From positions 2,830,438-2,894,437 of the forward strand of contig OZ241332.1 in NCBI GenBank assembly GCA_965200125.1: a stretch of 64,000 nucleotides of DNA, in the 5' to 3' direction. The translations under genes were made by a program, and so were the position numbers. The DNA comes from an uncultured Candidatus Binatia bacterium (GTDB taxonomy: Bacteria > Desulfobacterota > Binatia > Bin18). Under the pieces are notes generated by a model that was not told where the DNA came from, did no database searches, and saw nothing but the letters and a program-made list of their open reading frames with translations. Position 1 is the stretch's first letter. Each line of letters opens with the position of its first letter. Positions 46,786-47,319 of this stretch are shown one piece after another.

Positions 46786-47319
46786 ATGACGAAACTCTAC
46801 GATCCGACCGCCGCGCCACCGCGTGCCGGTGCGAGTCTGGCCGCACGACTGCCCGACCTGCGCGGCAAGACCGTCGGCCTGCTGGACATCAGTAAGGCCA
46901 AGGGCAATTTCTTTCTGGACCGTGTCGCCGCGTCGCTGGCCGAGAGCCATGCGCCGCGCGAGATCGTCCGGCGCACCAAACCGACGTTCGCCCGCCCGGC
47001 CCCAGACGCGTTGCGGAACGAATTGGCGGAGCGCTGCGACGTTGTGGTCGAAGCGCTGGCCGATTGAGGGTCCTGTACGACGTGCAGTGTGCACGACGGC
47101 ATCTTCTTCGAGAACGCGGGCATCCCGTCCGCGGTATTCGCCACGACCGAGTTTTCCAACGCCGCCCTTGCACAGGCCAAGGCGCTGGGGCTGCCGCAGT
47201 TCCGCGTCATTCTGGTCGAACACCCGATTCAGCCGTTGACCCCGGAAGAGGTGCACGGCCGCGCCGACGCCGTGTTCGATCGCATGTTGGAAACCGTGAC
47301 GGCCCGACCGGCCGGCTGA
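46786..47319 (+). CDS. UGSC-family selenoprotein. In-frame TGA at 47065-47067 followed by GGG TCC TGT, giving Asp-U-G-S-C-T-T-C.
   Basis: Track ORFs 46786..47067 and 47089..47319 share one frame. Strong GAGGAGGAAG RBS before the ATG at 46786. The U-G-S-C motif defines this family. Confidence 0.6.
47081..47095 (+). promoter_or_regulatory. Putative SECIS-like hairpin cgtgca-GTG-tgcacg, 13 nt downstream of the in-frame TGA.
   Basis: Perfect 6-bp stem. Shares the GTGCA-Gnn-TGCAC core with the hairpin at 3535-3551. Confidence 0.4.

What the first reader, a model, noticed from the sequence alone, without database searches (positions are those of the whole stretch)
46786..47319. UGSC-family selenoprotein gene split by an in-frame TGA, downstream of an HpaB-like monooxygenase and a Cys-rich hypothetical protein
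- ORFs 46786..47067 and 47089..47319 are in the same frame.
- The joining codon TGA (47065-47067) is followed by GGG-TCC-TGT. The protein reads ...VVVEALAD-U-G-S-C-TTCSVHDG..., which is the motif that names the UGSC selenoprotein family.
- A 6-bp hairpin (cgtgca GTG tgcacg) starts 13 nt after the TGA.
- The gene follows an HpaB-family monooxygenase and a 351-aa conserved hypothetical after a 30-nt gap (operon-like). The function of this family is essentially unknown.
Basis: partly seen in the sequence, partly recalled or inferred. Interest (0 to 1): 0.8.

Follow-up and report, generated by a model that had tools for sequence, protein, structure and literature searches.

The report
UGSC selenoprotein gene with partner
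This is a genuine gene for a selenocysteine-containing protein of the already catalogued "UGSC" family, whose function is unknown, and it almost always sits beside one particular uncharacterised 350-residue protein that is the best lead to what it does.

Summary
ATG 46786 to TGA 47319 is one reading frame, interrupted by TGA at 47065-47067, which is followed by GGG-TCC-TGT. The hairpin cgtgca-GTG-tgcacg lies at 47081-47095.

With Cys at the TGA, the joined protein passes the curated UGSC models across both halves (NCBIfam NF041046 165.7 bits, cut-off 125; Pfam PF24696 174 bits).

- The same codon is TGA in all 64 related genome loci and 5 distant ones.
- About 47 of the 150 best family representatives are full-length forms reading D-C-G-S-C there.
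- The six codons forming the hairpin show no synonymous variation in 63 distinct sequences. Every other conserved codon nearby varies. This indicates an RNA-level (SECIS) constraint.

New here:
- The upstream 350-aa protein is the conserved partner. It lies directly upstream in 81 of 91 informative metagenome contigs and is sometimes fused to UGSC. It has no Pfam, NCBIfam or PDB relative.
- HpaB, SDR and LigAB neighbours are lineage-specific.
- The modelled fold of a Cys-form relative is flavodoxin-like, not thioredoxin-like.

The selenocysteine machinery could not be checked, and the function is still inferred. Verdict: a new member of a known family.

The parts
45703..46755 (+). Gene for the 350-aa partner protein ('P350'): a large uncharacterised family. 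Invariant motifs are DGLPxxPPT, NAxMAGC (Cys73), NGPxR, RANATxGRA, PEHA and VAGG.
46772..46779 (+). Ribosome-binding site GAGGAGGA, 6 nt before the ATG of the UGSC gene.
   Evidence: Read directly from the sequence.
46786..47319 (+). UGSC-family selenoprotein gene: 177 codons including Sec94, then stop TGA 47317-47319.
   Evidence: NCBIfam NF041046 scores 165.7 bits (cut-off 125) and Pfam PF24696 scores 174.2 bits, both across the two halves. Orthologues are listed.
47065..47067 (+). In-frame UGA read as selenocysteine (U of U-G-S-C).
   Evidence: The codon is TGA in 64 of 64 related loci and in 5 distant loci of about 40% identity. Full-length homologues have Cys there. TGA is otherwise the commonest ordinary stop in this window, closing 14 of 20 genes.
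47078..47098 (+). SECIS hairpin: 2 bp, an A/A mismatch, a 6-bp stem (47081-47086 / 47090-47095), and apical loop GUG (47087-47089).
   Evidence: Predicted fold. Codons +5 to +10 have no synonymous variation in 63 distinct sequences, whereas all other conserved codons vary by 0.4-2.0 bits. The sequence is unchanged in contigs of 42-76% GC. A small apical loop containing G is the stated hallmark of bacterial SECIS elements (PMC1088965).
44186..45631 (+). HpaB-family flavin-dependent monooxygenase (oxygenase component). It is a neighbour, not part of the conserved module.
   Evidence: Pfam HpaB_N and HpaB match. TIGR02309 scores 444.6 bits, below its 480.2 cut-off. It is adjacent only in this sublineage.
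47741..48502 (+). Short-chain dehydrogenase/reductase, 421 nt downstream. It is a lineage-specific neighbour.
   Evidence: Pfam adh_short_C2 match and likely start codon. An SDR also follows the pair in L083 and L086, but in only 1 of 53 metagenome contigs with enough downstream sequence.

Best explanation
46786-47319 is one gene for a 177-residue selenoprotein of the UGSC family, in a Candidatus Binatia genome.

How it is read (inferred from conservation): the ribosome meets UGA at codon 94. The hairpin that starts 11-13 nt downstream (47078-47098, loop GUG) acts as the bacterial SECIS element. It recruits SelB with Sec-tRNA(Sec), so selenocysteine is inserted instead of terminating.

The protein (from a model of a Cys-form relative): a single flavodoxin-like alpha/beta domain. 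Sec94-Gly-Ser-Cys97 sits between the third strand and the N-terminus of the following helix, a position suited to a selenenylsulfide/selenol-thiol redox couple.

The module (shown by context and fusions): the gene forms a two-gene module with the 350-aa gene just upstream.

Function (inferred, about 40% confidence): UGSC is the small redox-active subunit of a two-component oxidoreductase. P350, with its single invariant Cys73, is the substrate-binding or catalytic subunit. Reducing power comes from whatever local reductase is available, such as an SDR, a thioredoxin-reductase-like flavoprotein or a NifU-like CxxC protein.

The confidence given below refers to the identity of the gene, Sec decoding and the module.
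For: - Family membership passes the curated cut-offs across both halves.
- The codon is TGA in 64 of 64 genome loci from Binatia, Tectimicrobiota/Entotheonella, Rokuibacteriota/Methylomirabilota, Acidobacteria and others. It is also TGA in 5 distant loci.
- Cys forms align through the site.
- Synonymous variation is zero only in the six hairpin codons.
- The hairpin is absent or altered in four of five Cys-form genes examined. In L082 it keeps a compensatory C-G to G-C swap.
- TGA is a normal stop elsewhere in the window.
- The strong RBS and 30-nt spacing to P350 fit co-transcription.
- Module: P350 is directly upstream on the same strand in 63 of 80 P350-anchored loci. It is also there in 81 of 91 UGSC-anchored metagenome contigs with at least 400 nt upstream, with a median gap of about 23 nt.
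- The pair is kept in reversed order at 35% identity. Natural fusions P0165 and P0248 exist.
Against: - No selA, selB, selD or tRNA-Sec is in the 64 kb, and the rest of the genome could not be read.
- The hairpin is invariant among Sec forms, so there is no covariation among them, and its folding energy is not exceptional.
- Part of the hairpin sequence is tied to the amino-acid motif [ST]-[CW]...H-D, which also occurs in Cys forms. Protein and RNA constraints are therefore entangled.
- About 10% of UGSC genes lack P350 upstream, and 14 of 80 P350 genes have no UGSC within 6 kb.
- No substrate, cofactor or interface was established. The P350 model is mediocre (pLDDT 70).
- The fold was modelled on a relative about 33% identical, not on the window protein itself.
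Confidence: 0.88

Rival explanations
1. The TGA is a real stop: a pseudogene, a sequencing error, or two separate small genes (a 93-aa N-half and a 76-aa C-half starting at GTG 47089).
For: Gene callers routinely split it this way (L001; 95 of the 150 best representatives are C-half fragments). No Sec machinery is seen in the window.
Against: The TGA is fixed at the same codon in 64 of 64 loci across phyla, with both halves under purifying selection. Full-length Cys forms exist. Both halves form one beta-sheet domain in the model of a relative. The constrained hairpin has no explanation under this reading.
Confidence: 0.02
2. UGSC is a free-standing thiol/selenol oxidoreductase for general redox defence, as implied by its listing among 'Trx-like fold' selenoproteins. 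The neighbouring P350 gene is functionally unrelated.
For: The UxxC motif suggests this. The literature groups it with Trx-like proteins (PMC2398784, PMC13188914). About 10% of UGSC genes have no P350 upstream. Downstream neighbours are not conserved.
Against: The modelled fold is flavodoxin-like, not thioredoxin-like. The rate of 89% adjacency at a median 23-nt gap, the conservation of the pair in either order down to 35% identity, and the natural fusions all argue for a physical partnership.
Confidence: 0.1
3. UGSC/P350 is a distant analogue or homologue of the substrate-specific selenoprotein-B type reductases (GrdB/PrdB with their partner proproteins). Sec would attack a bound substrate and the neighbouring Cys would resolve the adduct.
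For: The window protein reads U-G-S-C-T-T-C. This resembles the UxxCxxC motif that I recall for GrdB (recollection, not tested). The architecture is two components, with a selenoprotein and a larger partner.
Against: No match to Pfam GRDB (PF07355) or Gly_reductase appears even at E<=10. The third Cys is encoded by the SECIS stem (TGC) and is not conserved in Cys forms, which read TSW, SAA, TAY and so on. The extended motif is therefore probably a by-product of the RNA. No PDB hit to such enzymes was found.
Confidence: 0.06
4. The module belongs specifically to aromatic-compound catabolism, working with HpaB-type hydroxylation and LigAB-type ring cleavage.
For: HpaB lies 72 nt upstream here. 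LigB and LigA directly follow UGSC in 9 Rokuibacteriota/Methylomirabilota genome loci and in several metagenome contigs. A cupin, an Amidohydro_2 protein and SDRs occur in other contexts.
Against: HpaB is separated by a divergent gene in the three other Binatia loci inspected and is absent elsewhere. LigB follows in only 5 of 53 unbiased contigs and an SDR in 1 of 53. The contexts are otherwise heterogeneous.
Confidence: 0.15

Closest known systems
UGSC-containing selenoprotein family (NCBIfam NF041046, Pfam PF24696). It was first noted in Hyphomonas neptunium and marine metagenomes, and was a major family in the GOS data (255 Sec forms, 21 Cys forms).
   Same: It has the same motif, the same length, HMM scores above the curated cut-offs, a Sec/Cys pair at the same column, and a SECIS directly after the UGA (PMC1976440, PMC2398784).
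   Different: Nothing essential differs. This is a member from a Candidatus Binatia genome. The literature calls the fold 'likely Trx-like', but the model of a relative made here is flavodoxin-like.
'UGSC/Unknown_1' fusion reported from the GOS metagenomes (PMC2398784, Figure S1A)
   Same: UGSC is fused to a conserved domain of unknown function that carries a conserved Cys. Fusions of UGSC with the P350 family were found here (P0165, P0248).
   Different: The published alignment is held only as an image, so I could not confirm that Unknown_1 is P350. In the window the two are separate genes 30 nt apart. The near-obligate adjacency measured here (89%) is not stated in the papers I could read.
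Bacterial SECIS elements (E. coli fdhF type)
   Same: A stem-loop sits a few nucleotides after the UGA, inside the coding sequence, with a small apical loop containing G (PMC1088965).
   Different: It is a very short element, with a 6-bp stem and a 3-nt loop. It is identical at nucleotide level across phyla and across 42-76% GC. No curated Rfam model matches it.
Flavodoxin-like / CheY-like alpha/beta domains (for example the flavodoxin domain of flavorubredoxin 4d02, and methanogenesis marker protein 7, 8s7v_H)
   Different: Sequence identity is only 9-20%, with no shared cofactor-binding or active-site motif. The resemblance is of fold only.

Membership tests
UGSC family (NF041046 / PF24696) | Whole-protein HMM score above the curated cut-off, with the alignment spanning both sides of the TGA | tested here: met
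   NF041046 scores 165.7 bits against a cut-off of 125 (residues 27-171). PF24696 scores 174.2 bits against 25 (residues 4-172).
UGSC family (NF041046 / PF24696) | U/C-G-S-C motif at the conserved position | tested here: met
   The window protein reads D-U-G-S-C at residues 93-97. The positions D93, C/U94, G95, S96 and C97 are invariant in the alignment.
UGSC family (NF041046 / PF24696) | Cys-containing homologues align through the Sec position | tested here: met
   39 full-length representatives read D-C-G-[SAG]-C, and about 8 more are Cys-form variants or truncated N-terminally, among the best 150.
Bacterial Sec-decoded gene | In-frame UGA conserved among orthologues | tested here: met
   The codon is TGA in 64 of 64 loci and in 5 distant loci. 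The exact signature occurs in at least 120 metagenome contigs.
Bacterial Sec-decoded gene | SECIS stem-loop just downstream of the UGA, with a small apical loop containing G | tested here: met
   The hairpin lies at 47078-47098 with loop GUG. Synonymous variation is zero in exactly these six codons. Caveats: there is no covariation among Sec forms, and the folding energy is not exceptional.
Bacterial Sec-decoded gene | selA, selB, selC (tRNA-Sec) and selD present in the genome | not testable with these tools
   None was found among the window ORFs scanned, and the only tRNA is Leu-CAA.
Bacterial Sec-decoded gene | Selenium actually incorporated at codon 94 | not testable with these tools
   This needs 75Se labelling or mass spectrometry.
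Thioredoxin-fold oxidoreductases (the class under which the literature files UGSC) | Thioredoxin fold with the redox motif at the N-terminus of helix 1 | tested here: not met
GrdB/PrdB reductase selenoproteins (PF07355) | Sequence match to the family model | tested here: not met
   No hit to PF07355 at E<=10.
GrdB/PrdB reductase selenoproteins (PF07355) | Conserved UxxCxxC motif | tested here: not met
   The third Cys is conserved only in Sec forms, where its codon TGC is part of the SECIS stem. Cys forms have W, A, Y or S there.
4-hydroxyphenylacetate 3-monooxygenase HpaB (TIGR02309), for the upstream neighbour | Equivalog score above the cut-off | tested here: not met
   The score is 444.6 bits against a cut-off of 480.2. 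The Pfam HpaB_N and HpaB domains are present. It belongs to the HpaB family, but its substrate is not assigned.

The most novel reading that the evidence does not exclude
P350 and UGSC together form a previously undescribed two-subunit (seleno)enzyme. The catalytic subunit (P350) has no Pfam or NCBIfam model and no solved structural relative, and uses its single invariant Cys73. The other subunit is a flavodoxin-fold selenol/thiol protein. The pair is spread as a self-contained two-gene cassette through soil and marine bacteria (Binatia, Tectimicrobiota, Rokuibacteriota/Methylomirabilota and others). The SECIS is frozen at nucleotide level because it overlaps functionally constrained codons.
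Probability: 0.4. Interest if true: 0.65.

Novelty: new member of a known kind. Interest (0 to 1): 0.38.

Why it matters
[quoted passage not shown] The gene itself is ordinary for the family.

What makes the open question testable is the result that UGSC is almost always coupled, and sometimes fused, to one specific large uncharacterised family. One can co-express the pair, look for a complex, and screen for activity that depends on Sec94/Cys97 and on P350 Cys73.

Two practical points follow:
- Gene callers split these genes almost everywhere. 95 of the 150 best representatives are C-terminal fragments.
- The exact 33-nt signature is a simple way to find and repair them.

Tried and rejected
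- GrdB/PrdB-like reductase idea, prompted by U-G-S-C-T-T-C: no Pfam GRDB hit. The third Cys tracks the SECIS stem and is not a protein feature.
- Thioredoxin fold: not supported by the model and fold searches.
- HpaB-P350-UGSC operon: lineage-specific.
- P350-UGSC-SDR triad: suggested by the window, L083 and L086. It was not borne out in the unbiased set, where 1 of 53 contigs had it. The SDRs are only 34-40% identical to each other.
- LigAB link: real, but confined to one clade.
- Folding energy as evidence for the SECIS: z = 0.2, so uninformative.
- Rfam: no family matched at the gathering threshold or at E<=10.
- PDB sequence searches for UGSC and P350: only chance-level hits.
- The exact 350-aa protein is not on record in the assembly index.
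- Source names for P350 relatives are all 'hypothetical protein'.
The C-terminal half and a natural fusion homologue were used instead.
- The afdb50 fold library was not available.
- A literature search for Binatia plus selenocysteine found nothing.

Full report
**1. Observation**

The sequence is as described.
- An ATG at 46786 is preceded by GAGGAGGA (46772-46779).
- It opens a frame that runs to TGA 47317-47319, with a single in-frame TGA at 47065-47067.
- The codons after it are GGG TCC TGT ACG ACG TGC AGT GTG CAC GAC, so the protein reads ...EALAD-U-GSCTTCSVHDG...
- The palindrome CGTGCA/GTG/TGCACG lies at 47081-47095. RNAfold extends it to 47078-47098.
- The upstream gene ends at 46755, 30 nt before the ATG.

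**2. Family**

With Cys in place of the stop, the 177-residue protein matches NCBIfam NF041046 'UGSC family (seleno)protein' at 165.7 bits (cut-off 125). It matches Pfam PF24696 at 174.2 bits. Both alignments cross the TGA.

The family is documented as a selenoprotein of unknown function. It was first seen in Hyphomonas neptunium and ocean metagenomes, and was among the most abundant families in the GOS data (PMC1976440, PMC2398784). It is still listed as uncharacterised in 2022 and 2026 reviews (PMC9312934, PMC13188914).

**3. Is the TGA decoded as Sec?**

I fetched 80 genome loci through the neighbouring 350-aa protein. They come from Candidatus Binatia (the closest, OZ251505.1, is 95% identical), Tectimicrobiota/Entotheonella, Rokuibacteriota/Methylomirabilota, Acidobacteria and others.
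- 64 of these loci hold a UGSC gene. In all 64, the N- and C-halves are separated by exactly one codon, and it is always TGA.
- Five more distant genes (about 40% identity) have the same arrangement.
- An exhaustive search with the C-terminal half found 430 representatives. Of the best 150, 95 are C-half fragments, which are Sec genes cut by gene callers. About 47 are full-length proteins with D-C-G-S-C at the site. Cys homologues therefore bridge the TGA.
- TGA is an ordinary stop elsewhere in this window, closing 14 of 20 confident genes. The recoding is therefore local, not a change of genetic code.

**4. SECIS**

Energy alone says nothing (z = 0.2). The codon-level test is decisive. In 63 distinct sequences, codons +5 to +10 (ACG TGC AGT GTG CAC GAC) show no synonymous variation at all. 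Every other conserved codon from -30 to +45 shows 0.4-2.0 bits.
- The 33-nt signature is exact in 67 loci in hand and in at least 120 metagenome contigs with GC from 42% to 76%.
- The small G-containing apical loop matches the stated hallmark of bacterial SECIS elements (PMC1088965).
- Four of the five Cys-form genes examined lack the hairpin. L082 keeps it with one compensatory C-G to G-C exchange.
- There is no covariation among Sec forms because the element is invariant.
- Part of it is tied to the amino-acid motif [ST]-[CW]...H-D, so RNA and protein constraints overlap.
- The third Cys of U-G-S-C-T-T-C is encoded by the stem and is not conserved in Cys forms.

**5. Sec machinery**

The window has only tRNA-Leu. 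None of about 33 ORFs scanned is SelA, SelB or SelD.

**6. The conserved partner**

- It lies directly upstream of UGSC on the same strand in 63 of 80 loci anchored on P350.
- To remove the anchoring bias, I scanned metagenomes with the UGSC signature. Of 91 contigs with at least 400 nt upstream, 81 (89%) carry P350 there, at a median gap of about 23 nt.
- Ten contigs lack it, even by HMM search.
- In Cys-form systems the pair persists at 35-47% identity, in either order.
- Natural fusions exist: P0165 has UGSC followed by P350, and P0248 is similar. These may correspond to the 'UGSC/Unknown_1 fusion' of PMC2398784, but the figure is held only as an image.
- Conversely, 14 P350 loci with adequate flanks have no UGSC within 6 kb.

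**7. Other neighbours**

- HpaB is 72 nt upstream only in this sublineage. In other Binatia it lies 1.2-4.4 kb away, with a divergent gene between the two in the three loci inspected (L003, L012, L016). It is absent outside Binatia. Its TIGR02309 score is below the equivalog cut-off.
- LigB and LigA follow UGSC in one Rokuibacteriota clade, but LigB follows in only 5 of 53 unbiased contigs.
- An SDR follows the pair in the window, L083 and L086, but in only 1 of 53 unbiased contigs.
- A NifU-like CxxC domain is sometimes fused to Cys-form UGSC or encoded just upstream.

The only general partner is P350.

**8. Fold**

The joined window protein could not be submitted, so I modelled the natural fusion P0165 with an alignment of both families.
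- The UGSC domain (pLDDT about 93) has five strands alternating with helices. C-G-S-C lies between strand 3 and helix 3.
- This does not fit the 'likely Trx-like fold' of the literature.
- The P350 part found no structural relative. Its model is only moderate, so a truly new fold is possible but not shown.

**9. Mechanism**

- Shown: family membership, conserved UGA, RNA-level constraint on the hairpin, Cys homologues, and the P350-UGSC module with its fusions.
- Inferred: SelB-dependent Sec insertion; a Sec94/Cys97 selenenylsulfide couple; and UGSC acting as the small redox subunit of a two-component enzyme whose larger subunit is P350 (about 40% confidence).
- Unknown: the substrate.

**10. 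Verdict**

This is a new member of a known selenoprotein family in an uncultured Binatia genome. The added value is the quantified, near-obligate partnership with an uncharacterised family, the nucleotide-invariant SECIS, and the correction of the presumed fold.

Noticed in passing
window 47338-47660: Nested imperfect inverted repeats fill the spacer between UGSC and the SDR gene and look like a MITE/REP-type insertion. Examples are 47368-47400 with 47471-47503 (88% complementary) and 47528-47576 with 47589-47637. The closest relative, L001, has a spacer about 200 nt shorter.
   Followed up: partly
window 32000-44000 (ORFs 37762-39441 and 39754-41706, minus strand): This stretch has lower GC (0.49-0.60, against about 0.65 elsewhere). 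It holds a DEAD-box helicase ORF and an adjacent Helicase_C plus MZB/DUF1998 ORF. These may be one disrupted MrfA/DISARM-type helicase gene, and the stretch looks like an island.
   Followed up: no
window 47741-48502 and 50014-50775; 5627-6670, 35970-37073, 50706-51737; 52426-56400: The region holds two paralogous SDRs (70% identical), three luciferase-like monooxygenases and a hydantoinase A/B pair. It is rich in catabolic oxidoreductases.
   Followed up: partly
window 14852-20195: A LuxE-like acyl-protein synthetase, a LuxC-like acyl-CoA reductase and a class III aminotransferase lie in a row. This could be a fatty aldehyde/amine pathway.
   Followed up: no
window 4020-5267: A fusion protein of vitamin K epoxide reductase (VKOR) with a DsbA-like thioredoxin domain.
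   Followed up: no
L082 1042-2667 (fusion P0165): A Cys-form UGSC-P350 fusion gene keeps a hairpin, CGUGGA-CGA-UCCACG, at the position of the SECIS. It has one compensatory C-G to G-C swap. It may be a relic of a Sec ancestor, or a consequence of the S-W...H-D codons.
   Followed up: partly
P0228, P0230, P0276; L083 7742-7963; L082 746-1045: A NifU-like CxxC domain (C-[GEAP]-D-C-[LIV]-[VM]-P) is fused to the C-terminus of some Cys-form UGSC proteins. Elsewhere it is encoded as a 73-99 aa gene just upstream. It is a possible redox partner.
   Followed up: partly
L036, L042, L043, L046, L050, L051 and other P350 loci without UGSC: P350 genes that lack a UGSC neighbour often sit next to an aldehyde-oxidase/CoxL-like large-subunit gene of about 780 aa (judged from the N-terminal sequence, not checked against Pfam), a Rieske-type protein, or TRAP transporter genes.
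   Followed up: no
L213 (metagenome contig, 42% GC): The same 33-nt UGA-plus-hairpin sequence is retained unchanged in a low-GC genome whose flanking codons are AT-rich. The element resists compositional drift.
   Followed up: partly
L087 5630-7564: One Cys-form UGSC gene follows a DHO_dh plus ferredoxin-domain (PreA-like) gene instead of P350. The contig ends at the UGSC stop, so a downstream P350 cannot be excluded.
   Followed up: no
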